From Minisyncoccia bacterium (GTDB lineage Bacteria > Patescibacteriota > Minisyncoccia > Phycocordibacterales > SBAW01): 64,000 nt of DNA. The DNA lies in the NCBI GenBank assembly GCA_049997855.1, contig JBEKSG010000001.1, forward strand, positions 58,059 through 122,058, in the 5' to 3' direction. Position 1 is the stretch's first letter. The number at the start of each line of letters is the position of its first letter. Below are positions 12,062-63,132 of the stretch, piece after piece. The position numbers and the translations under genes were made by a program. Under the pieces are notes generated by a model, which was given only the letters and a program-made list of their open reading frames with translations, searched no databases and was not told the DNA's origin.

Positions 12062-12106
12062 ACGGAGGTTAAACCTTCGTTTAATGTACGGAGGTTAAAC
12101 CTCCGT
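12062..12106. repeat. REP doublet (ACGGAGGTTAAACCTTCGT + ACGGAGGTTAAACCTCCGT, direct) flanking the RAYT 3' end
   Basis: 19-bp perfect palindrome ACGGAGGTT-A-AACCTCCGT seen directly. Confidence 0.75.
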
Positions 12107-12761
12107 TTTCTCCGTAGGAAAGCCATTCTTTGAGACTATGTCTAAAATCTAACGCGGTTTCAAAATACTTTGGCAGCGTTGTTTTATTGAGAATGTTACC
12201 TTCTATACGTTTTGTGCCAATATAATCGGGATAACTTGAGTACGGATATTTTTTGAGATATGTTTCCGCTCTATTTTTGTCGGCAATGCCAGTCTCTTTC
12301 CATGCCGGTTCGATTAATTTTACCGGGTTTAAATGGATATAAGAAATAAGGTAAGAGAGATAGCGATCTTCACTAACGTGCGATGATTTGTATGTCCCTT
12401 GGAAGAGTGCACCTGAGTGTTTATATTTTTTATTAAAGTACATCGTGTAAGCTGTCGTCAGTTTCTGCATAAACTTGCTTATGCCCCCGTCTGCTTTTTC
12501 GTGCACAAGCAAATGAAAATGATTTGGCATTAAACAATAGACGCCAATATCTGTCAGGGTCTCTCCGCGCTCAACCATGTGGGCTTTTTCAAGCGTTTGA
12601 CCCTGCGCTCTGGTATCCGTTGAAATACTGCTATTACAGAGATAGAGAAGTGATATAAAACGATCATAATCTATTTGGGAGGTAAAAATGTCCCTTTTTT
12701 CGACGCCGCGATTGTATAAGTGGTAAAACTCTCCTGGTGCAAAGACGCTTTTTCGTGCCAT
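12081..12761 (-). CDS. REP-associated tyrosine transposase (RAYT; IS200/IS605-like Y1 HUH transposase)
   Basis: YHLYNRG, HUH motif NHFHLLVHE, C-terminal Tyr region. Gene bracketed by REP palindromes on both sides; the last residues GGLTSVH are encoded by the REP itself. Confidence 0.75.
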   Translation of the reverse strand: MARKSVFAPGEFYHLYNRGVEKRDIFTSQIDYDRFISLLYLCNSSISTDTRAQGQTLEKAHMVERGETLTDIGVYCLMPNHFHLLVHEKADGGISKFMQKLTTAYTMYFNKKYKHSGALFQGTYKSSHVSEDRYLSYLISYIHLNPVKLIEPAWKETGIADKNRAETYLKKYPYSSYPDYIGTKRIEGNILNKTTLPKYFETALDFRHSLKEWLSYGENGGLTSVH

Positions 12762-24371: not shown

Positions 24372-25130
24372 TTATTGCGCAAGCACTTCTTCGATAACTT
24401 TTGCCGTTTCTATTGGACCCGACACTTCTTGCGTGCGTATGCCGGTAGGAATTACTACGGCGTCGTTTCCGCCCTCTTTGAGCGCATCGCCTACATAAAG
24501 CATGCTTGAGATAGGAATGCCGCTCATTTTTGCAAGCTCTCCAAGCCCGTAGGCTTTGGTGATGCCTTTGCGCGTGATATCTATGGTCGTGAGGCCGCCT
24601 GTGGCGTTTGCAAATTCCGGCAGCTCCCGCACGAGCGCCTCATGAAGTTTTTGTCGCATGTCGTCATGGCTCTTATGCCACACCTCTTTTTCTTTGAGAG
24701 GCGCTTGTTGCCCCAGGGGAGAAAACGCGATTTCCGCATCGCGGTCTTCAACACGCTCGCCCCACACGCGCACCGGCGCGTGTGAGAGACCCACTTCGGC
24801 AAGCGCTTGTGCGAGAACGCTCATAATGTGCTCTTTCTCTTCGTGAGTGAAGGCTTTGTTATAAACCGTTTGCCAGGCGTTATGTTTGTACTGCCAGCAT
24901 TGCGCCGCGCTGTCAGGAAATATATACAGGTGTGCGAAGTTGATGTCTGTCGGGAGTGCAGGCAAAAATTGCCTTTCAAATTGGGGAAAACCGGCTCCCG
25001 ACATCACCGCAACCGGCATTTTTTGCAGGAGTTTTCCTAACAGCTCGCCCATTTCTTTCGTGACAGGCTGTTTACTCTCGGCGAGCGTGCCGTCGAGATC
25101 GAATGCTACGAGCTTTGGCGTAAAATCCAT
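24372..25130 (-). CDS. HAD-IIB family hydrolase (phosphomannomutase/sugar-phosphatase-like)
   Basis: DLDGTL motif I (VAFDLDGTLAES), C-terminal YVGDALKEGGND (motif IV). Confidence 0.6.
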   Translation of the reverse strand: MDFTPKLVAFDLDGTLAESKQPVTKEMGELLGKLLQKMPVAVMSGAGFPQFERQFLPALPTDINFAHLYIFPDSAAQCWQYKHNAWQTVYNKAFTHEEKEHIMSVLAQALAEVGLSHAPVRVWGERVEDRDAEIAFSPLGQQAPLKEKEVWHKSHDDMRQKLHEALVRELPEFANATGGLTTIDITRKGITKAYGLGELAKMSGIPISSMLYVGDALKEGGNDAVVIPTGIRTQEVSGPIETAKVIEEVLAQ

Positions 25131-25177
25131 TTTTTCATTATACCATTGCTAAAAATCATTCTTTTGGTAAATTCTCC

Positions 25178-25191
25178 ATATTACGTAATAT
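25178..25191. promoter_or_regulatory. 14-bp perfect palindrome ATATTACGTAATAT (copy 1 of 3), upstream of the yerC-like gene
   Basis: Exact copies at 25653-25666 and 60599-60612. Confidence 0.5.
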
Positions 25192-25210
25192 CAATAATTA
25201 ACTCATCGGT

Positions 25211-25642
25211 ATGAAAGTACGAACAAAAGAGTTGGAAGAAAGTGTAAGAATCAAAGTTCTCGATGCCTTGTATACAGCAACTTCGGCAATACAGGGCCGC
25301 GCGGCCCTGAAGCTTTTCCTGCGCGATTTGTTGACCGAAAGCGAGAGAATTATGCTCGGGAGGAGAATACTCATTGCACAACAATTGCTCCAAGGCGAGC
25401 GACCTACGGCTATCGCTTCAAACCTCAAGGTGGGCTATGACAACATCTATCGTGTACAACGCTGGCTCAGCGATCAACTTCCTGGTTATGAGCAAGCGAT
25501 TAAGGAAATGGAAAAAGAACTGAAAAAGAGGCGAGACCATTATGAAGATAGGCGACTGTATGCGACTAATATGTTATATCGACTTAAGAAAAAATATCCC
25601 GGTCATTTTTTACTTTTTCCGACTCCAACTATAAAACAATAG
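25211..25642 (+). CDS. TrpR/YerC/YecD-family DNA-binding protein
   Basis: LLTESERIMLGRRILIAQQLLQGERPTAIASNLKVGYDNIYRVQRWL matches the YerC/TrpR helix pattern; gene is bracketed by identical palindromes. Confidence 0.5.
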   Translation: MKVRTKELEESVRIKVLDALYTATSAIQGRAALKLFLRDLLTESERIMLGRRILIAQQLLQGERPTAIASNLKVGYDNIYRVQRWLSDQLPGYEQAIKEMEKELKKRRDHYEDRRLYATNMLYRLKKKYPGHFLLFPTPTIKQ

Positions 25643-25652
25643 AAATATTATG

Positions 25653-25666
25653 ATATTACGTAATAT
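25653..25666. promoter_or_regulatory. 14-bp palindrome ATATTACGTAATAT (copy 2), between the yerC-like gene and the GH130 operon
   Basis: Direct sequence observation. Confidence 0.5.
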
Positions 25667-25733
25667 AGTAATATTCTTGGCAGAATAAACAAAAAGCGGA
25701 TATATCGCAAGCAGACCTATAAGGATCCTTATT

Positions 25734-27650
25734 TTACAGATTGTTGGGCAGTAATATTTTTAACAGTTTCTTGAGCGATATTTTGGCGACGCACACCACG
25801 GTGTCGGCGCCGCCGTAATACACCAGGAGCGTGTCTTTGCGCAACACTGCTCCGCACGAAAACACCGCTTTAGGCATCACGCCAATACGTTCGTACTCCT
25901 CGATAGGTTCAAGGATAGTATCCACGAGGCGTGAGACAACCACGGAGGGATTTTTTAAATCGAGCAGCACCGCCCCCAAGCGATAGGTCGACGTTTTAGA
26001 GACGCCGTGATAAATGAGCAGCCAACCCTTCCGAGTTTTAATGGGCGCGCCCGCAATGCCGATTTTTACCGAGTCCCACATGCCGGGCCGCGGATTCATG
26101 ATCTCGATACAGCGCGTAAGGCGCGTCTTGGTAAAGTCGAGCGTATTAAGAAAGTCGGCGCACAACTGCGGATCGATACGATGCAGCAGCATGTACTGAC
26201 CTTTTATCTTTTCGGGAAAGAGACAGGTGTCTTTATCATTGACGTTGTCGGGCGTGGTGAGCATGGGCTTTTGCCACTTGTCCCAGCGTTTGGCCAAAAA
26301 ATCCTTGACCGATATGGAGGTAATGGCAACACGCGTCGGATCAACGCCGTTATAGGCGGTATACATCATATATATGACGTTGCCAATCCTTGTGATGCGC
26401 GGGTCCTCACAGCCGGAGTTGCCGCCGCCTTTCTTCATTTCGAAATCTTCACGTGGCTTGTAGGCGGGCCCCTCGTCGCGCTCGGTGATTTTGATGCCAT
26501 TTTTGGTTTCCGCGTAGCCAAGGACCGACGTGTTGTCGTCGCCCATGGCGCGATACAAGAGATGGATAGTGCCGTCTATATCAAGCGCGGCAGTATTGAA
26601 CACGGCCTTCTTTTCCCACGCGTGGGCTTGGTTTGGCTTTATGATGGGGTTTTCTTTGGCACGCACCGCAAGCTCCACGCGGCGCTCGGGCATCATCGCG
26701 CTCAAAAGGTCGGGCAAGTTGAGCGAGGCGCGTGCGCACACGGTATCGGCGCCGCCATAATAGAGGTCAACTCGGCCGTTTTTTTGCAACAATGCGCCGG
26801 AGGGGAAGACGATATTTGGCACGATGCCGTATTTTTCGTAAATTTCTTCCGGCACCATAATTGGTCCGCGGGTAGCGCCGACGATTTTTGTGGGATCTTT
26901 GAGGTCGAGAAGGAGCGCCTCGATGCCAAACACGCGCTCGCCGCCGCCGAAATAGTTTTGTATGTAGGAATAAAACAACAACCAGCCGTCTTTGGTTTTA
27001 ATAGGTACCGAACCTACCTCCGCGTGGTCGTGATCAAAACGCAAGGGATTGATGATGTGCGATTCAAGCTCCGCATGCCACTCTTCCCAAAAGCCCAAAT
27101 CCCAGAGCTCTTCTATCTTGTCGCACTCCGCTATGGCGATATGTGCCGGCGGCTCGTCGGTGTGCACGGTAACAATGACCGTTATCTTGCCGCCGATGCG
27201 CTCGGGGAAGAGCGCCATGGCTTTGGCGTTAAAGGGAGTAATGAGGTGTCTCTCTTCAATCGATTCAAGATTTTTGGAAATAGCGCAGGCAACTTTGATA
27301 TTGCCCGGACCAAACGGCATGCCGCCGAGCGCCGTATAAAAAATGTAGTATTTGCCTTCAAAAAAAGTTATGCGCGGATCCTCGCATCCGTATGTTTCCC
27401 ACTCTTCGGTAGGCACGATAAATTGCTGGCGGTTTTGAAAGTGCTTGCCGTCTATCGTAAACGCTTTACCGATAGTCGAGATGCCGCCGGGGGCAAGCAG
27501 GGCGTCGGGGCGGCTTTGTGCTCGGTACAAGATATGCGTAAATTTGCCCACCTGCACCGGGCTTGGGTTAAACGCGCCGCGGGACTCCCATTGCCGGTCG
27601 TTGGCAGGAGCGATAAGTGGGTTATGCGAGCTTCTGCGGATAACGTACAT
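25734..27650 (-). CDS. Tandem double-domain glycoside hydrolase family 130 protein (beta-mannoside phosphorylase/hydrolase-like)
   Basis: Two internal repeats each with the GCEDPRIT motif, plus YYGGAD twice. Confidence 0.7.
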   Translation of the reverse strand: MYVIRRSSHNPLIAPANDRQWESRGAFNPSPVQVGKFTHILYRAQSRPDALLAPGGISTIGKAFTIDGKHFQNRQQFIVPTEEWETYGCEDPRITFFEGKYYIFYTALGGMPFGPGNIKVACAISKNLESIEERHLITPFNAKAMALFPERIGGKITVIVTVHTDEPPAHIAIAECDKIEELWDLGFWEEWHAELESHIINPLRFDHDHAEVGSVPIKTKDGWLLFYSYIQNYFGGGERVFGIEALLLDLKDPTKIVGATRGPIMVPEEIYEKYGIVPNIVFPSGALLQKNGRVDLYYGGADTVCARASLNLPDLLSAMMPERRVELAVRAKENPIIKPNQAHAWEKKAVFNTAALDIDGTIHLLYRAMGDDNTSVLGYAETKNGIKITERDEGPAYKPREDFEMKKGGGNSGCEDPRITRIGNVIYMMYTAYNGVDPTRVAITSISVKDFLAKRWDKWQKPMLTTPDNVNDKDTCLFPEKIKGQYMLLHRIDPQLCADFLNTLDFTKTRLTRCIEIMNPRPGMWDSVKIGIAGAPIKTRKGWLLIYHGVSKTSTYRLGAVLLDLKNPSVVVSRLVDTILEPIEEYERIGVMPKAVFSCGAVLRKDTLLVYYGGADTVVCVAKISLKKLLKILLPNNL

Positions 27651-27665
27651 ACTATATGCGGTATT

Positions 27666-28781
27666 TCATACCTTGTTTTCGGGACGGGTCAGCGTTGCCA
27701 AAAATTCATCGAGATTTATTTTTGCCGCGGCAATGCGCTTGTCGCCGCCGCCGTAGTACACAAGCAGGTCGTCGCCAAACACCACGCCGCCCGAGGCGTA
27801 AATGATGCCGGGCTTCCAGTCGTTTTCGTACCAGGCATCGGGCGAGAGTATCGGCTTGTGCGAGCGATAGAGCACTTTGGTCGGATCGTTGAGATCAAGC
27901 AAAAGCGCGCCTACCTTGTAACGCTCTCGGTCGTCTTTATCCATGGCGTGGTAGAGCAGTATCCACCCTTTTTTTGTCTTGATAGGCGGCGAAGCGGCGC
28001 TCCTCGTGCGATTGTGCCAGCCCACAACCCGGTCGGGCACCTGTTGCGGGTCGGGGCTCTCGTGCTGGAAGGGCGCCTCATCCGTCGAAAGCTTATCCAT
28101 GTAGGCAACCTTCACTTTGTTGGCATCTTCATCATAAAGATTATGAAGAAGCGCAAATTTGCCGTTTATTTTTTCGGGGAAAAGCACCCAGTTTTTGTGG
28201 CGCTCGCCCGGGCGCGAAAGATAATTAAATTTGTTCCACAACCACTGCGCGCGCGTGAGATTTTGTGCGTCAATGCTGGTGAGTGCAACACGCATAGAGC
28301 TCCAGCCGTTAAACATATTAAAAGTAAGATACACGCGACCGTCTATTTTTACCGCGCGCGGATCCTCACAGCCGCCCCAACCGCCGCCCGAAGGATTGTG
28401 TATTGTGTCGTACGTAAGCCGTGCCGGCGAGGTGTAGAGATGATGCTCCTTGGCTTCTGTAACGTTCTCGGCGGCATACACAGGGAAGGGGAGCCGCTCA
28501 TCAAAGTGGACGCCGTCGGTGCTTGAAGCGTAGCCAATGCGGGATATGCCATCGCGCCCGAGCGCGCGATAAAAAAGATGCACGCGGCCATCCTCAACCA
28601 CGGCGGCCGGATTAAACACCGCCTCCGACTCCCACCAGTTGAGAGCAATAGGCTCAAGCACGGGATTCTCCGCAATGCGATGCAACTGCGGAGCTATGCC
28701 GCGTTTTTTGCCTGACGGCCACAAAAGAATGATTAGGAGTGCGAGTACAAGAACGAGTACGATCAAAATGAAGATGATCAT
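27666..28781 (-). CDS. Membrane-anchored GH130 family protein
   Basis: N-terminal TM helix, GGCEDPRAV and YYGGGD motifs. Confidence 0.7.
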   Translation of the reverse strand: MIIFILIVLVLVLALLIILLWPSGKKRGIAPQLHRIAENPVLEPIALNWWESEAVFNPAAVVEDGRVHLFYRALGRDGISRIGYASSTDGVHFDERLPFPVYAAENVTEAKEHHLYTSPARLTYDTIHNPSGGGWGGCEDPRAVKIDGRVYLTFNMFNGWSSMRVALTSIDAQNLTRAQWLWNKFNYLSRPGERHKNWVLFPEKINGKFALLHNLYDEDANKVKVAYMDKLSTDEAPFQHESPDPQQVPDRVVGWHNRTRSAASPPIKTKKGWILLYHAMDKDDRERYKVGALLLDLNDPTKVLYRSHKPILSPDAWYENDWKPGIIYASGGVVFGDDLLVYYGGGDKRIAAAKINLDEFLATLTRPENKV

Positions 28782-28796
28782 AATATATGAAATTCC

Positions 28797-29150
28797 TTAC
28801 ACTCGGCCATAATTGTCTTCAAAGCGGGTAATGTCGTTTTCATCAAATTGACCAAGGGCAATTTCAAGAAACGTGAGACCTTCGGAGCCGCCGGCCACGC
28901 GGTGATGTGTGTGCCGTGCGACAAAAAACTCGTCCCCCGGGCTCACCTTAGTTTGTGTATCGCCAACAATGATCGTGCCAAAACCTTTGAGGATCTTCCA
29001 CTCCTCATCTCGATGCTCGTGCTGTTGCAAACTGAGCTCTTGGTTGGGGTCAATGGTGATTATTTTTACCGTAGAAGGCTCGTTAAGCGTAAAGCGCTCA
29101 AAGGAGCCCCATGGGCGCGCCTCTTTATAGTAATGAGAAAGGCCCCGCAT
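28797..29150 (-). CDS. Cupin domain protein (mannose-6-phosphate isomerase type II C-terminal-like)
   Basis: EARPWGSFERF...HRDEEWKILKG...GD...H cupin motifs; start set at the internal Met (MRGLSHYY). Confidence 0.55.
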   Translation of the reverse strand: MRGLSHYYKEARPWGSFERFTLNEPSTVKIITIDPNQELSLQQHEHRDEEWKILKGFGTIIVGDTQTKVSPGDEFFVARHTHHRVAGGSEGLTFLEIALGQFDENDITRFEDNYGRV

Positions 29151-29204
29151 GCACCTAGTATACGCTATTTTTGCAAGGGCGGTGCACAAAGATATGCACA
29201 GATG

Positions 29205-51400: not shown

Positions 51401-52927
51401 ATGAAAGCAGTTGAGGTATCACGAGTATCGACCGAAGAACAAAAGGATGCGGGCAACTCGCTTCCGGCTCAAAGCGAACGCATAAAAAACTACTGCAAGC
51501 GCAAGGACTTCGACATAGCTGCGTCGTTCAGCTTCGATGAGAGCGCCTACAAGACCAAACGCGATGAGTTCGACAAACTGCTCACATTCGTTGAAGAAGC
51601 CATCAAAAAAGAGAAGCTGGCCGTTTGTTTCGATAAAGTGGACCGGCTTTCGCGTAGCGTTTTTGACAAGCGTGTTGCTCGACTGTACGAACTTGCCATT
51701 GCCGACAAGATAGAGCTGCACTTCGTCTCGGACGGGCAGGTCATAAACGCTCAGATGTCGGCTGTCGAGAAGTTCCAGTTCGGCATGAGCTTGGGCCTTG
51801 CAAAGTACTACTCGGACGCTATCAGCGACAACGTAAAGCGAGCGTTCGAGCAGAAGCGCCGGAAGGGCGAATGGACCGGCCCTGCGCCCTTGGGCTATCT
51901 CAACGTGGCTCTCGACGCAGAAAAGCGGCTTCGTAAGGACATCATTGTCGACCCCGAACGAGCACACCTCATCGAGCGCCTTTTCCTGCTGTACGCGACC
52001 GGCAACTACTCAATCACGACAGTGCATGAAGAGATAACACGCCTCGGGCTTCGTGGCCGCGAAGGAAACGTGTTGGCCCGCAGCAACATCGAGTTCACTC
52101 TCAAGAACCCTTTCTATTACGGTTTCGCACGACCACGCAAAGGTGCTCCGTATCCACACAAGTACAAGACGATAATCTCGCGTGAGCTTTTCGACCGCGT
52201 ACAGTCGGTTTTTTACAGCCGCCACAAAGCAACTTCGAAGCCGCTGTCCGACCTCTTTATCTTCAAAGGGCTTTTGCACTGCGACCACTGCGGCTGCGTC
52301 ATGTCGCCAGAGATAAAGAAGGGCCGTTTTATCTACTACTCCTGCACGAACGCCAAAAGGACCTGCAAACGCGTGTATGTGCGCGAGGAAGAGCTTCTGA
52401 AGCCCGTACAGGACGTTTTCAAGGCCTTTGAGAAGATACCGGCCGACGTTGAGAAGCGGCTTTTGAAGGAACTGCGCGACCTCAACGAAAGCGAGGTTGA
52501 GTACAACAAGAAAGAGCTGGTCCGTATCCGAGCCGAGTACGACCGCGTACAGAACCTCATCGACGGCTACATGGACATGCTCGCCGACAAGAGTATTACC
52601 AAGGATGACTATGACAAAAAACTGGAAAAGCTAAAAGACCGGCAGTACCGGTTGAACATCGAAGCGGAAGAACATACGAAAGCCGACCACGACTACAAAC
52701 TGACCATCTCCCACGTGTTTTCTATGTCGCGCCGCATGGGCGCCATCTTCGAGAGTTCGGAAGTGCCCGAGAAAAGGGCTATTTTGAACTTCTTACTTCA
52801 GAACCCGAAGGTATCAGACAAAAAGCTAGTGTTTACAATGGCAAAACCGTTTGATGCCGTACTCGAACTAGCTAACTGTCCAACTGGGCTCCGCGACCAG
52901 GACTCGAACCTGGAACCAACTCCTTAA
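51401..52927 (+). CDS. Large serine recombinase (integrase)
   Basis: N-terminal resolvase domain with catalytic RVSTEEQ, recombinase domain, zinc ribbon HCDHCGC...YYSCTN, coiled-coil; the 3' end overlaps tRNA-Asn. Confidence 0.8.
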   Translation: MKAVEVSRVSTEEQKDAGNSLPAQSERIKNYCKRKDFDIAASFSFDESAYKTKRDEFDKLLTFVEEAIKKEKLAVCFDKVDRLSRSVFDKRVARLYELAIADKIELHFVSDGQVINAQMSAVEKFQFGMSLGLAKYYSDAISDNVKRAFEQKRRKGEWTGPAPLGYLNVALDAEKRLRKDIIVDPERAHLIERLFLLYATGNYSITTVHEEITRLGLRGREGNVLARSNIEFTLKNPFYYGFARPRKGAPYPHKYKTIISRELFDRVQSVFYSRHKATSKPLSDLFIFKGLLHCDHCGCVMSPEIKKGRFIYYSCTNAKRTCKRVYVREEELLKPVQDVFKAFEKIPADVEKRLLKELRDLNESEVEYNKKELVRIRAEYDRVQNLIDGYMDMLADKSITKDDYDKKLEKLKDRQYRLNIEAEEHTKADHDYKLTISHVFSMSRRMGAIFESSEVPEKRAILNFLLQNPKVSDKKLVFTMAKPFDAVLELANCPTGLRDQDSNLEPTP

Positions 52928-52960
52928 CAGGGAGCTGCTCTACCATTGAGCTATCGCGGA
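52889..52960 (-). tRNA. tRNA-Asn (anticodon GUU)
   Basis: Manual fold: acceptor TCCGCGA/TCGCGGA, D-arm GCTC-AATGGTA-GAGC, anticodon arm GCTCC-CTGTTAA-GGAGT (GTT), T-arm CCAGG-TTCGAGT-CCTGG, discriminator G; CCA not encoded. Confidence 0.75.
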
Positions 52961-59901: not shown

Positions 59902-60588
59902 ATGACTCACCATGCCTATTTTTTAGAAGGCGAGCTGAACCTCTTGCAAGCGGTAAGCAACGACGTGCGCGCACGCGAGCATATAAAAAGTAATGATCCC
60001 GACTTTCTTGAACGAATGTACGAAAAGTTTGGCGTCGAAGAAGCGGCAAAGCTGAGAACTCTTGCGTCTTTTAGAGCGGCGGGAGAAAAAAGTTTTTTTA
60101 TTATCGCAATTTCTTCGATTACCATCGAGGCGCAGCAAGCGTTGCTCAAACTGCTCGAGGAACCGCGCACAGGATTGACGCTCGTGCTCGTGGTGCCGCA
60201 CGGTGCGCTGTTGCCAACACTGCGCTCGCGCATGCTCGCATATCCACACAAGTTGAAATTTGCTGAGCAAAATAGTCTGGTTGAGACGAAGTCGACCCGA
60301 GGACTTTTTGAACAGCAAATTTCAACTTTCCTAAAATCGCCCTATAAAGCGCGCAGTGCAATCATTACCGAGTTGCTTGGGGACGACGAGGGTGCCCGGG
60401 AGCGCGTGCGGGCTTTTTTAAACGGGCTCGAAATCGAGCTCCATACAAAATTTTTGCAGTCGAAGGGTAAAAAAGAGTTTCGCGAAGCGCTCGAGGATAT
60501 TGCGAAAGTGCGCTCTTACGCGGGCGACCGCTCGCCATCTTTTAAAATGTTACTTGAGCATTTGGCTTTGGCGTTACCGAGGTTTTGA
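59902..60588 (+). CDS. holB: DNA polymerase III delta-prime-like clamp-loader subunit (degenerate, no Walker A)
   Basis: HAYFLEG...LLKLLEEPRTGLTLVLVVPHGALLPTLRSR pattern. Confidence 0.55.
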   Translation: MTHHAYFLEGELNLLQAVSNDVRAREHIKSNDPDFLERMYEKFGVEEAAKLRTLASFRAAGEKSFFIIAISSITIEAQQALLKLLEEPRTGLTLVLVVPHGALLPTLRSRMLAYPHKLKFAEQNSLVETKSTRGLFEQQISTFLKSPYKARSAIITELLGDDEGARERVRAFLNGLEIELHTKFLQSKGKKEFREALEDIAKVRSYAGDRSPSFKMLLEHLALALPRF

Positions 60589-60598
60589 AATTATTACT

Positions 60599-60612
60599 AT
60601 ATTACGTAATAT
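60599..60612. promoter_or_regulatory. 14-bp palindrome ATATTACGTAATAT (copy 3), 12 nt upstream of the nth start
   Basis: Direct sequence observation. Confidence 0.5.
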
Positions 60613-60623
60613 AGGAAACTTTC

Positions 60624-61301
60624 ATGAGTCCCAAAAAACTACAAGAAAGAAAACTGCGCGTGCGAAAGCTCAACAAAGCTCTTGCGGAGCTTTTTCCGCA
60701 TGCAAGAATTGAGCTCAACTATAAAACGCCGTTGGAGCTTTTGGTGGCCGTCCAGCTCTCCGCACAGTCGACCGATAAAACCGTCAACAAGATTACCGAA
60801 ACGTTGTTTAAAAAATATAAAAATCTTGATGCCTACGTGCGTGCGAGCCAAACCGAACGAGGCAGGCGTGAGTTTGAACGCGCCATCTTTTCATCTGGAT
60901 TTTATCGCAACAAAGCTAAAAACATCCTTGCTGCCGCCGCAATGATAAAAGAAAAGTTTAATGGGAAAGTGCCCAAAACAATGGAAGGGATGTTGCGCCT
61001 GCCGGGCGTTGCGCGCAAAACAGCCAACGTGGTGCTTGCCGAGGCGTTCGGTGCTTTGGCAGGCGTTGCGGTAGATACGCATGTCATACGCTTTGTAAAA
61101 CGATTTGACCTTTCCGACGAAAAAATGCCCCAAAGAATAGAAAAAGACTTGACGCAACTCTTGCCGCACAAAGAATGGCGCGCGTTTACGCACAGGGTTA
61201 TCTGGTATGGCAGGCGCATGGCGCCTGCCAGGCCCTACGACACTGGCAAAGACCCGTTGGTTAAAATCTATCCGCCTGCCACCAAACGCTTTAGGGTGTA
61301 G
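60624..61301 (+). CDS. nth: Endonuclease III-family HhH-GPD DNA glycosylase lacking the C-terminal 4Fe-4S cysteine cluster
   Basis: LLVAVQLSAQSTDK, LPGVARKTANVVL HhH-GPD; no CxxxxxxCxxCxxxxxC at the C-terminus. Confidence 0.7.
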   Translation: MSPKKLQERKLRVRKLNKALAELFPHARIELNYKTPLELLVAVQLSAQSTDKTVNKITETLFKKYKNLDAYVRASQTERGRREFERAIFSSGFYRNKAKNILAAAAMIKEKFNGKVPKTMEGMLRLPGVARKTANVVLAEAFGALAGVAVDTHVIRFVKRFDLSDEKMPQRIEKDLTQLLPHKEWRAFTHRVIWYGRRMAPARPYDTGKDPLVKIYPPATKRFRV

Positions 61302-62004: not shown

Positions 62005-63132
62005 ATGACCTTTGTCTACTTTATCCTCATTTTGGTGGTGCTTGTCATCGTGCACGAGTTTGGACATTTTATCGTGGCCAAATTGTGCGGCATACGTGTC
62101 GACGAGTTTGGCATATTTTTCCCGCCGCGCATCGCGGCCATCACAAGAGGGGAGACCATATACTCCATTAATTGGCTGCCGTTTGGCGGGTTTGTAAAAA
62201 TCTTCGGCGAAAATTACAACGACCTGCCTGCGCAGGCAGGAGGGCAAACCGGCACGCGGAGCTTTGCGAGCAAGCCGCCGCTTATGCAAGCCATGGTTAT
62301 CGTTGCGGGCATCGTGTGCAACCTTCTTTTTGCGTGGCTTGTGCTCTCGACGGGTTACATGGCGGGCATCCCTACCTCGCCCGGCACCAACACCTTTGGC
62401 ACCGTTACCAACGTACAGGTACTTGTGACTGACGTGTTGCCCGGCTCTCCGGCCGAAAAATCCGGTCTTGTGAGCAACGACCAGATAGAGAAAATACAAA
62501 CCGCCAGCGCCTCGCTCGATGTGCGCTCGCTTATACAAACTCAAAGCTCCGGCGCGGCTGATACCGTAACCAACTTTATTGTGGCGCATCAAGACGAGAG
62601 CGTAATTATCACGGTGTTGCGCGGCGGGCAACAAAAAGAGTTTTTAGCCAAAGCCGAGAGCGGACTTGTCGCAGGGCGCAAAGCAATAGGCGTTGAACTC
62701 TCCGATGTGGGCACGCTGAGGCTTGCGCCCCCGCAAGCTATACTCCAAGGTGCGATATTTGGCTACGACATTACCATCAACACAGCGCAAGGCCTCGCTG
62801 TTTTTTTAAAGCAATTGGCAACCGGCACCGCCGATTTTAGTCAAGTATCGGGCCCCATCGGCATCACCGTGTTTGGTGCGGCAACGCTCAAGGAGGGATG
62901 GGTAGCGGCGGCGCTCTTAACCGCGCTCATATCGATAAATCTGGCAATCATAAACCTCATCCCCATCCCCGGGCTTGACGGCGGCCGCTTGCTTATCATT
63001 GGCATCGAGGCAATACGCCGCCGCCCAATGCACCCGAGCCTCGTGATGAAGGCTACCATGGTCGGTTTTGTGCTCCTCATTATCCTCATGGCTGTAGTGT
63101 CGTATCACGACATAGTTCGCCTCGTGGGATAA
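62005..63132 (+). CDS. rseP: RIP site-2 metalloprotease (M50, RseP-like) with PDZ domain
   Basis: HEFGHF zinc motif in TM1; PDZ region; C-terminal NLIPIPGLDGG motif. Confidence 0.8.
   Translation: MTFVYFILILVVLVIVHEFGHFIVAKLCGIRVDEFGIFFPPRIAAITRGETIYSINWLPFGGFVKIFGENYNDLPAQAGGQTGTRSFASKPPLMQAMVIVAGIVCNLLFAWLVLSTGYMAGIPTSPGTNTFGTVTNVQVLVTDVLPGSPAEKSGLVSNDQIEKIQTASASLDVRSLIQTQSSGAADTVTNFIVAHQDESVIITVLRGGQQKEFLAKAESGLVAGRKAIGVELSDVGTLRLAPPQAILQGAIFGYDITINTAQGLAVFLKQLATGTADFSQVSGPIGITVFGAATLKEGWVAAALLTALISINLAIINLIPIPGLDGGRLLIIGIEAIRRRPMHPSLVMKATMVGFVLLIILMAVVSYHDIVRLVG

What the first reader, a model, noticed from the sequence alone, without database searches (positions are those of the whole stretch)
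25178..25666. 14-bp palindrome ATATTACGTAATAT on both sides of a TrpR/YerC-like regulator gene, with a third copy upstream of nth
Three exact copies lie at 25178-25191, 25653-25666 and 60599-60612. Two bracket the YerC/TrpR-family gene (25211..25642), one in its promoter and one in the divergent region before the GH130 operon. The third sits 12 nt upstream of the endonuclease III start. A TA-rich perfect palindrome with a CG centre is a typical dimeric HTH operator. This suggests a small regulon linking mannoside catabolism and DNA repair.
Basis: seen in the sequence. Interest (0 to 1): 0.55.

Follow-up and report, generated by a model that had tools for sequence, protein, structure and literature searches.

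The report
Regulator gene bracketed by its own operators
The three identical 14-base palindromes are most likely the binding sites of the small TrpR/HisR-like DNA-binding protein encoded between two of them, and this layout of a gene bracketed by its own genome-specific palindrome recurs in most of the 80 Parcubacteria relatives examined and does not appear to have been described.

Summary
ATATTACGTAATAT occurs exactly three times in the window, against none expected. One detail is wrong: copy 2 lies in a convergent gap at the 3' ends of the regulator and the GH130 gene, not before a GH130 promoter.

The enclosed gene belongs to the Trp_repressor family (PF01371) and forms a Parcubacteria-wide subfamily with an extra C-terminal helix and tail. 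In 52 of 80 homologous loci a perfect palindrome with the family centre lies on both sides of the gene. The shared core is 18-20 bp, differs between genomes, and tracks the recognition helix. Asp77 goes with GATATATC in 39 of 40 cassettes, non-Asp with CATATATG in 31 of 31, and Asn78 with the window's TACGTA centre.

The site before nth recurs at the same holB|nth junction in two other genomes, each carrying the commonest family core.

Best reading: cognate operator, giving autoregulation plus a small regulon that includes nth. The mannoside link rests on synteny only.

Some things do not fit a plain operator. Copies extend as perfect hairpins. Dispersed copies favour convergent gaps. One copy sits in frame inside miaA.

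The parts
25178..25191 (.). Copy 1 of the palindrome, in the 80-nt divergent gap between the PMM-like HAD gene and the regulator. Its centre is 26 nt before the regulator ATG.
   Evidence: The same position and core type are kept in L081, L082 and L084.
25164..25191 (+). Promoter-like element TTGGTA-16 nt-TAATAT. The -10 hexamer is the right arm of copy 1.
   Evidence: Read from the sequence. TTGGTA at the same spacing is conserved in L081, L082 and L084. It matches 8 of 12 positions, below the scan tool's threshold of 9. Inference only.
25211..25642 (+). 143-aa TrpR/HisR-family HTH protein. The recognition helix is VGYDNIYRVQRW (residues 74-85). A C-terminal helix and the tail LYATNMLYRLKKKYPGHFLLFP are conserved.
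25645..25674 (.). Copy 2 (core 25653-25666) inside a 30-nt near-palindrome. It lies 10 nt after the regulator stop and 67 nt before the GH130 stop, in a convergent gap.
   Evidence: Downstream copies exist in most homologous cassettes.
25699..25706 (.). The only GATATATC octamer in the 64-kb window. This is the family-type palindrome centre, so it may be a relic of an ancestral downstream site.
60597..60614 (.). Copy 3, an 18-nt perfect palindrome between the holB stop (60588) and the nth start (60624).
   Evidence: The same junction holds CACTATGATATATCATAGTG in L087/L088/L182 and ACTATGATATATCATAGT in L152. It is empty in L089-L092, L006 and L018.
60585..60612 (+). Promoter-like TTGAAA-16 nt-TAATAT overlapping copy 3. 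It would give nth a leader of only 4-5 nt.
   Evidence: 9 of 12 matches. A consensus match only.
60624..61301 (+). nth (endonuclease III), the candidate regulated gene.
24372..25130 (-). PMM-like HAD-IIB phosphatase, the divergent neighbour. It has its own TATAAT just upstream of the ATG. Any regulation by copy 1 is uncertain.
   Evidence: Synteny.
25734..27650 (-). GH130 mannoside phosphorylase, the convergent neighbour. Only its 3' end faces copy 2.

Best explanation
The palindrome is the cognate DNA site of the TrpR/HisR-family protein encoded at 25211-25642.

Shown:
- There are three exact copies.
- The protein family is established.
- Bracketing of the gene by a genome-specific palindrome is conserved across the family.
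- The core co-varies with the recognition helix.
- A family-type palindrome recurs at the holB|nth junction in other genomes.
- Upstream copies sit at preferred distances from the start codon.

Inferred:
- The protein binds as a dimer. It may bind as two dimers offset by 8 bp, on ATTAC/GTAAT half-sites spaced as in TrpR tandem binding.
- At copy 1 it occludes its own promoter (TTGGTA-16-TAATAT), giving negative autoregulation.
- At copy 3 it occludes a promoter-like element (TTGAAA-16-TAATAT) that drives a nearly leaderless nth.
- Copy 2, in the convergent gap, is a second site of the same protein. It would mark the 3' boundary of the gene through looping with copy 1 or by blocking read-through.
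- In most relatives this downstream site is built into a longer perfect hairpin with terminator polarity.
- The effector is unknown.
For: - Chance is excluded.
- The protein is PF01371. Its nearest solved relatives are 3FRW, 3KOR, 3G1C (E. eligens HisR) and TrpR.
- HisR/TrpR operators are 20-bp palindromes with lineage-specific consensus, for example cacTTTAnnnnnnTAAAgtg (PMC9413887). The family core here, CACTATGATATATCATAGTG, has the same size and the same CAC...GTG ends.
- In 80 homologous loci there are 63 upstream and 63 downstream perfect palindromes (arm of at least 6) with centre GATATATC or CATATATG. In 52 loci such a palindrome lies on both sides.
- The central 12-mers of the best upstream and downstream palindromes are identical in 53 of 64 cassettes. 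The shared arm averages 9.3 nt.
- Asp77 goes with G at position +/-4 in 39 of 40 cassettes, and non-Asp with C in 31 of 31. Finer helix classes match finer arm classes. Asn78 occurs only in the window clade, which has the TACGTA centre.
- At equal identity over the rest of the protein, pairs with the same residues at 76/77/78/80 share the operator arm in 33-43% of cases, against 3-8.5% for pairs that differ.
- Synteny HAD|regulator|GH130 is kept while the core changes, across the window, L081-L086, L001, L009, L015 and L025. The site therefore evolves in place.
- The centre-to-ATG distance is bimodal, at about 17 and 29-30 nt. A -10-like hexamer lies 6-9 nt before the ATG in the second class.
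Against: - There is no binding or transcript data, and the promoter hexamers are weak consensus matches.
- The covariation is partly confounded by shared ancestry. The Asp/non-Asp split may be a single deep event.
- The regulator of the L087 and L152 genomes was not recovered. Matching of the nth site to the regulator in trans is therefore direct only for the window.
- Copy 2 and most downstream copies lie in convergent gaps, where a promoter operator makes no sense.
- For the sister motif, only 29 of 137 sites adjoin a family gene. Dispersed sites favour convergent over divergent gaps, 16:3 against a background of 97:85 (p about 0.005-0.009).
- About a tenth of the dispersed sites are intragenic, including an in-frame site in miaA conserved in five genomes.
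- 45 of 104 copies extend as perfect palindromes beyond the shared core, against about 3 expected. A dimer footprint does not explain this.
- The two flanking sites show no helical phasing.
Confidence: 0.6

Rival explanations
1. Boundary or insulator element. The palindromes are hairpin, terminator-like elements at the ends of transcription units. The TrpR-like protein is a sequence-specific factor that acts on them, either as a roadblock terminator or by bridging sites. The gene sits between two such elements, and promoter repression is secondary.
For: - Perfect hairpin extension is specific to each copy and reaches 62 nt.
- Flanks are A-rich on the left and T-rich on the right, p=2e-5.
- Dispersed sites are enriched in convergent gaps.
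- The downstream neighbour is convergent in 59 of 78 cassettes.
- 3 of the 4 palindromes that resume after a mismatch do so across T/G, which is a U-G wobble on the sense strand.
- The protein has a long C-terminal helix, residues 93-128, that could mediate oligomerisation.
Against: - The window's own three copies are weak as RNA hairpins, at -2 to -7 kcal/mol with non-significant z-scores.
- None of them is called terminator-like.
- Several relatives have the opposite polarity, with the T-run on the left and the A-run on the right.
- Upstream copies show promoter-like geometry.
- There is no phasing between the flanking sites.
Confidence: 0.2
2. REPtron-like selfish element. The palindromes are a low-copy dispersed repeat family, spread or homogenised with the help of the protein whose gene they flank. 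This would resemble REP sequences and their RAYT transposase.
For: - The gene is flanked by the repeat, and further copies are dispersed.
- There are several paralogues per genome, each with its own palindrome class.
- Copies accumulate where insertion is harmless.
- In-frame intragenic copies exist.
- The holB|nth site looks like a 27-35-nt insertion into an ATGA gene overlap.
Against: - The protein has no nuclease or transposase domain.
- Copy number is very low: 3 in 84 kb here, and 1-2 exact copies on contigs of 140-190 kb in relatives.
- The regulator genes are stably syntenic.
- Sites are conserved at the same positions in genomes whose proteins are only 40-64% identical (miaA, five genomes) or 71-81% identical (nth). 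This indicates purifying selection, not repeated insertion.
Confidence: 0.12
3. The regulator controls the adjacent GH130 mannoside operon together with nth.
For: Synteny of PMM-like HAD, regulator, two GH130 genes and MPI is conserved in at least 9 genomes. Copy 1 lies in the gap shared with the HAD/PMM gene.
Against: - Copy 2 is at the 3' end of GH130.
- No copy lies upstream of GH130b or MPI (27666-29189) or anywhere else in that region.
- Other paralogue groups sit next to unrelated genes such as obg and secA.
- The HAD gene has its own TATAAT close to its ATG, more than 30 nt from the palindrome.
Confidence: 0.08

Closest known systems
HisR (YerC) and TrpR repressors, Pfam PF01371
   Same: - Same HTH fold family.
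- Operators are palindromes of about 20 bp with lineage-specific consensus and CAC...GTG-type ends (PMC9413887).
- From established knowledge, E. coli TrpR represses its own gene.
- TrpR dimers bind in tandem 8 bp apart (PDB 1TRR appears among the fold hits). This matches the 8-bp hexamer period around copy 2.
   Different: - The protein scores below the NCBIfam cut-offs for both TrpR (24 against 67.25) and YerC/YecD (16.4 against 42.2).
- It has about 45 extra C-terminal residues with invariant Tyr117, Tyr129 and His132.
- There are several paralogues per genome.
- Sites lie on both sides of the gene.
- Dispersed sites are not confined to promoters.
- The targets seen are nth, ruvA|uvrB, ruvC, folA, dCMP deaminase, dnaG, gatA, argS, rnc and an intragenic site in miaA. 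They are not amino-acid biosynthesis genes.
- The effector is unknown.
REP sequences with their RAYT gene (REPtron)
   Same: The gene is flanked by copies of a genome-specific palindrome that also occurs elsewhere, mostly outside promoters. Different paralogues go with different palindrome classes.
   Different: There is no HUH/Y1 transposase domain. Copy number is units to tens per genome, not hundreds. Site positions are conserved across divergent genomes.
Bidirectional intrinsic terminators
   Same: In relatives, many copies are perfect hairpins flanked by an A-run and a T-run, in convergent gaps.
   Different: The apical 18-20 bp are identical among copies within a genome and track a protein's recognition helix. 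The window's copies are AT-only, short and not predicted as terminators.
Chromosome-site systems such as MatP-matS, Noc-NBS and ParB-parS (from general knowledge)
   Same: A small DNA-binding protein pairs with a few to tens of palindromic sites per genome. Some sites lie inside genes, and the sites are conserved at the nucleotide level. A coiled-coil-like C-terminal helix could bridge sites.
   Different: Specificity diversifies rapidly between genomes and paralogues. Sites bracket the protein's own gene. No clustering around an origin or terminus was seen in the window.

Membership tests
TrpR/HisR family repressor-operator system (PF01371) | The protein carries the Trp_repressor domain. | tested here: met
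   E=3.9e-12, 46.5 bits against a cut-off of 27, covering residues 17-100.
TrpR/HisR family repressor-operator system (PF01371) | The fold resembles solved TrpR/HisR structures. | tested here: met
   Profile against PDB: 3FRW 3.7e-8, 3KOR 6.8e-7, 3G1C 2.4e-5. The Foldseek top hits are the same proteins and E. coli TrpR, with weak E-values for a monomer model of pLDDT 73.5.
TrpR/HisR family repressor-operator system (PF01371) | The operator is a palindrome of about 18-20 bp. | tested here: met
   The window has a 14-nt core, with copy 3 an 18-nt perfect palindrome. Across the family the shared arm averages 9.3 nt.
TrpR/HisR family repressor-operator system (PF01371) | The operator overlaps the promoter of the regulated genes. 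| tested here: inconclusive
   There are promoter-like hexamers over copies 1 and 3 and preferred centre-to-ATG distances. No TSS data exist. Copy 2 and many dispersed sites are not at promoters.
TrpR/HisR family repressor-operator system (PF01371) | DNA binding depends on an amino-acid co-repressor. | not testable with these tools
   No ligand information is available.
TrpR (TIGR01321) or YerC/YecD=HisR (TIGR02531) equivalogs | The score reaches the curated equivalog cut-off. | tested here: not met
   24 bits against 67.25, and 16.4 bits against 42.2. This is a distinct subfamily.
REP/RAYT (REPtron) | The flanked gene encodes an HUH Y1 transposase (PF01797). | tested here: not met
   only the Trp_repressor domain is found. 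The window's Y1_Tnp gene lies elsewhere, at 12081-12761.
REP/RAYT (REPtron) | The repeat is present in tens to hundreds of copies per genome. | tested here: not met
   There are 3 copies in 84 kb of this contig. Large contigs of relatives hold 1-2 exact copies.
Intrinsic terminator | A stable G+C-containing stem is followed by a U-tract. | tested here: not met
   For the window copies: not called by the scan, and fold energies are -2.3 to -7.3 kcal/mol with non-significant z-scores. The feature is partly met for copies in relatives.
Known RNA families (Rfam) | A covariance-model match lies at the site. | tested here: not met
   the only hit in the window is a tRNA at 52889-52960.

The most novel reading that the evidence does not exclude
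Parcubacteria carry a family of small TrpR-like proteins that are not ordinary promoter repressors. Each would recognise its own genome-specific palindromic hairpin element at transcription-unit boundaries, including both ends of its own gene and a few conserved intragenic positions such as miaA. There it would act as a sequence-specific insulator, roadblock terminator or site-bridging factor. The recognition code would be simple and fast-evolving (residues 76-80 against operator positions 4-9).
Probability: 0.2. Interest if true: 0.8.

Novelty: new variant of a known kind. Interest (0 to 1): 0.6.

Why it matters
Almost nothing is known about transcription control in Patescibacteria (CPR).

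This work gives a large set of natural protein-site pairs, with more than 1000 homologues in the protein search. The likely binding site can be read directly from both sides of each gene. The specificity changes are visible, for example Asp77 with G at position +/-4 and Asn78 with the TACGTA centre.

That makes the recognition code directly testable. It could also supply orthogonal repressor-operator pairs.

The work points to a small, partly conserved target set rich in DNA repair and nucleotide-metabolism genes: nth, ruvA|uvrB, ruvC, folA, dCMP deaminase and dnaG. This set is separate from the LexA network already described for this group (Sanchez-Osuna et al. 2017, seen only as a reference in PMC8565304).

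The bracketing of the gene, the hairpin growth of individual sites and the conserved in-frame site in miaA are not explained by textbook operator models.

Tried and rejected
- **Chance or low complexity.** Rejected.
- **Longer repeat or recent duplication.** Flanks of the three copies differ. Only copy 2 (reverse complement) and copy 3 share 21 nt.
- **Known RNA family or tRNA at the sites.** None.
- **RNA hairpin or terminator in the window.** Weak and non-significant.
- **Mobile gene cassette.** Rejected, because synteny is stable while the core changes.
- **Origin-of-replication context.** DnaA-box-like TATCCACA was seen upstream of some orthologues. There is no cluster and no skew switch in the window.
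- **DNA looping tested by helical phasing.** Centre-to-centre distances (median 475 bp, the same as the window) show no periodicity. This does not exclude looping at that length.
- **Conserved -35 box at a fixed offset across the whole family.** None found. Only a -10-like hexamer appears in the class with a centre-to-ATG distance of 27-33 nt.
- **G-U wobble test for RNA-level pairing.** Only 4 informative cases, 3 of them T/G. Too few to decide.
- **Regulator of the L087 genome.** Not recovered. The same sample gave four contigs with the motif but none next to a family gene.
- **Literature.** Five full-text searches found nothing describing this family or layout.
- **LexA or NrdR boxes as an alternative identity.** Considered from memory only. 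Not tested.

Full report
**Observation.** ATATTACGTAATAT occurs exactly three times in the window, at 25178, 25653 and 60599. None of 100 dinucleotide-preserving shuffles gave a match. Relaxing to three mismatches adds only one chance-level hit. Another 20 kb of the same 148.9-kb contig holds no further copy. Copy 3 is an 18-nt perfect palindrome at 60597-60614. Copy 2 is the centre of a 30-nt near-palindrome built from ATATTA/TAATAT hexamers at an 8-bp period. Copy 2 (reverse complement) and copy 3 share 21 nt.

The gene between copies 1 and 2 (25211-25642, +) is a Pfam Trp_repressor protein. The neighbours are a PMM-like HAD phosphatase (24372-25130, -) and a GH130 phosphorylase (25734-27650, -). 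GH130 is on the minus strand, so copy 2 lies between two 3' ends.

**The protein.** It is a 143-aa member of a large subfamily. The protein search returned 1076 hits, and all named ones are Parcubacteria/Minisyncoccia. Identity among the 31 aligned members is 62-84%. About 45 residues beyond the TrpR-like domain are conserved, with consensus LYATSALYRLKKKYPLHFLLFP. The protein falls below the NCBIfam cut-offs for both TrpR and YerC/YecD. The nearest solved structures are the structural-genomics TrpR-like proteins 3FRW, 3KOR and 3G1C, followed by E. coli TrpR. The AF2 model has pLDDT 73.5 and a long helix at residues 93-128. YerC is now known as HisR, a histidine repressor. Its operators, like those of TrpR, are 20-bp palindromes with lineage-specific consensus (PMC9413887).

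**The bracketing layout is a family trait.** I fetched 80 homologous loci from GTDB species genomes. Nearly all have a perfect palindrome just upstream of the ATG, and most have the same palindrome just downstream of the stop.
- There are 63 upstream and 63 downstream perfect palindromes (arm of at least 6) with centre GATATATC or CATATATG. In 52 of the 80 loci such a palindrome lies on both sides of the gene.
- At arm 7 or more, only 16 copies lie elsewhere in 1.07 Mb, and some of those flank further paralogues (L001, L060, L040).
- The central 12-mers of the best upstream and downstream palindromes are identical in 53 of 64 cassettes.
- The shared arm averages 9.3 nt, which gives an 18-20-bp core.
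- The median centre-to-centre distance is 475 bp, exactly the window's spacing.
- The gene usually runs against both neighbours. The upstream neighbour is divergent in 50 of 75 loci, and the downstream neighbour is convergent in 59 of 78.

**Close relatives.** The window's close relatives (73-84% identical; L081-L086) keep the synteny HAD|regulator|GH130-GH130-MPI. L081, L082 and L084 keep ATATTACGTAATAT-type cores and L086 has ATATTATGTAATAT. L081, L082 and L086 carry the core on both sides, while L084 has lost the downstream copy. More distant members of the same syntenic group carry GATATATC-type cores (L001, L009, L015, L025). The site therefore changes in place and is not carried on a mobile cassette.

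**The core tracks the recognition helix.**
- With window numbering (helix VGYDNIYRV = residues 74-82), Asp77 accompanies GATATATC in 39 of 40 cassettes. A non-Asp residue accompanies CATATATG in 31 of 31.
- Finer classes also match. Arg76 with Gly80 goes with GGATTGATATATCAATCC. Lys/Thr76 with Trp80 goes with GACTTGATATATCAAGTC. AGYxTIER goes with ACTACCATATATGGTAGT.
- Thr78 is otherwise near-invariant. It is Asn only in the window clade, which is also the clade with the TACGTA centre.
- Within bins of equal identity outside the helix, pairs with the same residues at 76/77/78/80 share the operator arm in 33-43% of cases, against 3-8.5% otherwise.
- Shared ancestry still contributes to this signal. 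It is strong support, not proof.

**The nth site.** In the closest nth relative (81%; L087/L088/L182) the same holB|nth junction carries CACTATGATATATCATAGTG, 5 nt before the ATG. In another genome (71%; L152) it carries ACTATGATATATCATAGT. In other relatives (60-76%) holB and nth abut or overlap (ATGA in the 76% group) and carry no palindrome. So a family-type palindrome recurs at this junction, and in the window it has the window regulator's sequence.

A promoter-like TTGAAA-16-TAATAT overlaps copy 3. TTGGTA-16-TAATAT overlaps copy 1 and is conserved in L081, L082 and L084. Across the family, the distance from the palindrome centre to the regulator ATG clusters at about 17 and about 29-30 nt. 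In the second class a -10-like hexamer lies 6-9 nt before the ATG. This suggests short-leader or leaderless mRNAs whose core promoter the site overlaps. That step is inference, because there are no transcript data.

**What does not fit a plain operator.**
- Individual copies extend as perfect palindromes beyond the shared core, with copy-specific arms up to 62 nt. An extension of 3 nt or more occurs in 45 of 104 copies, against about 3 expected.
- A scan of metagenome contigs for the commonest core, ACTATGATATATCATAGT, returned 120 loci with 137 sites. Only 29 of those sites adjoin a family gene.
- The dispersed sites favour convergent over divergent gaps, 16:3 against a background of 97:85 (p about 0.005-0.009).
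- Their flanks show A-left/T-right polarity, as at bidirectional terminators (p=2e-5).
- About a tenth of the dispersed sites are intragenic.
- In five genomes whose MiaA proteins are only 40-64% identical to one another, the 18-mer lies in frame at the same place in miaA. It codes TMIYHS just before PIVVGGTGFY. That is nucleotide-level conservation inside a gene.
- Sites also lie next to the 5' ends of ruvA|uvrB, ruvC, folA, dCMP deaminase, dnaG, a NUDIX gene, gatA, argS and rnc. This gives a repair and nucleotide-metabolism flavour that I did not test statistically.
- The window's own copies are short, AT-only and not significant as RNA hairpins or terminators. No Rfam family matches them.

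**Conclusion.** The best-supported account is that the palindrome is the cognate site of the encoded TrpR/HisR-like protein.
- Copy 1 gives autorepression.
- Copy 3 controls nth.
- Copy 2 is a second site at the 3' boundary of the gene. Its role is unresolved. It could loop with copy 1, block read-through, or be a remnant of the terminator-embedded sites seen in relatives.

The mannoside link is only synteny.

The main rival is that these are boundary or insulator elements with a dedicated binding protein. A weaker rival is a REPtron-like selfish system. That rival is undercut by the low copy number, the stable synteny, the conserved site positions and the absence of any catalytic domain.

I found no description of this family or layout in five full-text literature searches. 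I class it as a new variant of the TrpR/HisR repressor-operator kind.

Noticed in passing
window 62223-62240; also L063 4494, L078 3644, L091 5390, L131 513, L160 41, L176 12752: A second, unrelated 18-nt palindrome, CCTGCCTGCGCAGGCAGG, recurs with unrelated flanks in seven different Parcubacteria genomes within 2.08 Mb, where chance predicts about 3e-5. In the window it lies in frame inside the rseP (M50 peptidase) gene, coding LPAQAG. In L091 it lies inside murA. It may be another dispersed, conserved palindromic element.
   Followed up: partly
L126 1158, L148 207, L183 11512, L186 413, L207 271: The family palindrome ACTATGATATATCATAGT lies in frame inside miaA, coding TMIYHS immediately before the PIVVGGTGFY motif. 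This holds in five genomes whose MiaA proteins are only 40-64% identical to one another. All 18 nt are conserved while the neighbouring codons diverge.
   Followed up: partly
window 12081-12761 (-): A Y1_Tnp (PF01797, IS200/RAYT-like) gene with an HFHLL motif. No flanking palindrome with an arm of 5 or more was found next to it.
   Followed up: partly
window 25699-25706: The only GATATATC octamer in the 64-kb window lies 33 nt from copy 2, in the same 91-nt gap. GATATATC is the centre of the family-type palindrome, so this may be a relic of the ancestral downstream site from before the specificity switch.
   Followed up: partly
window 25719-25732: A 14-nt perfect palindrome, ATAAGGATCCTTAT, lies directly after the GH130 stop codon.
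   Followed up: no
window 25292-25309; L021 8624-8637: A GC-rich perfect palindrome lies inside the regulator's coding sequence at the same codons (the invariant G29-R30 stretch). It probably follows from the codons GGC CGC GCG GCC.
   Followed up: no
L040 8395-8902; L200 479-991: More distant TrpR-like paralogues, missed by tblastn at 1e-6, are also bracketed by palindromes: ACGATATATCGT-type in L040 and ACTATGATATATCATAGT in L200. The layout therefore extends beyond the subfamily studied here.
   Followed up: partly
L001, L009, L034, L035, upstream of the regulator: DnaA-box-like TATCCACA sequences lie upstream of several orthologues. There is no cluster of DnaA boxes and no GC-skew switch in the window.
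   Followed up: partly
L040 8964-9917; L075 9513-9773: A methylguanine-DNA methyltransferase-like gene lies divergent from the regulator in two genomes, joined by a uracil-DNA glycosylase-like gene in L040. In L075 a second palindrome copy sits 48 nt before the methyltransferase-like gene. The identifications are by eye from the sequences, not by Pfam.
   Followed up: no
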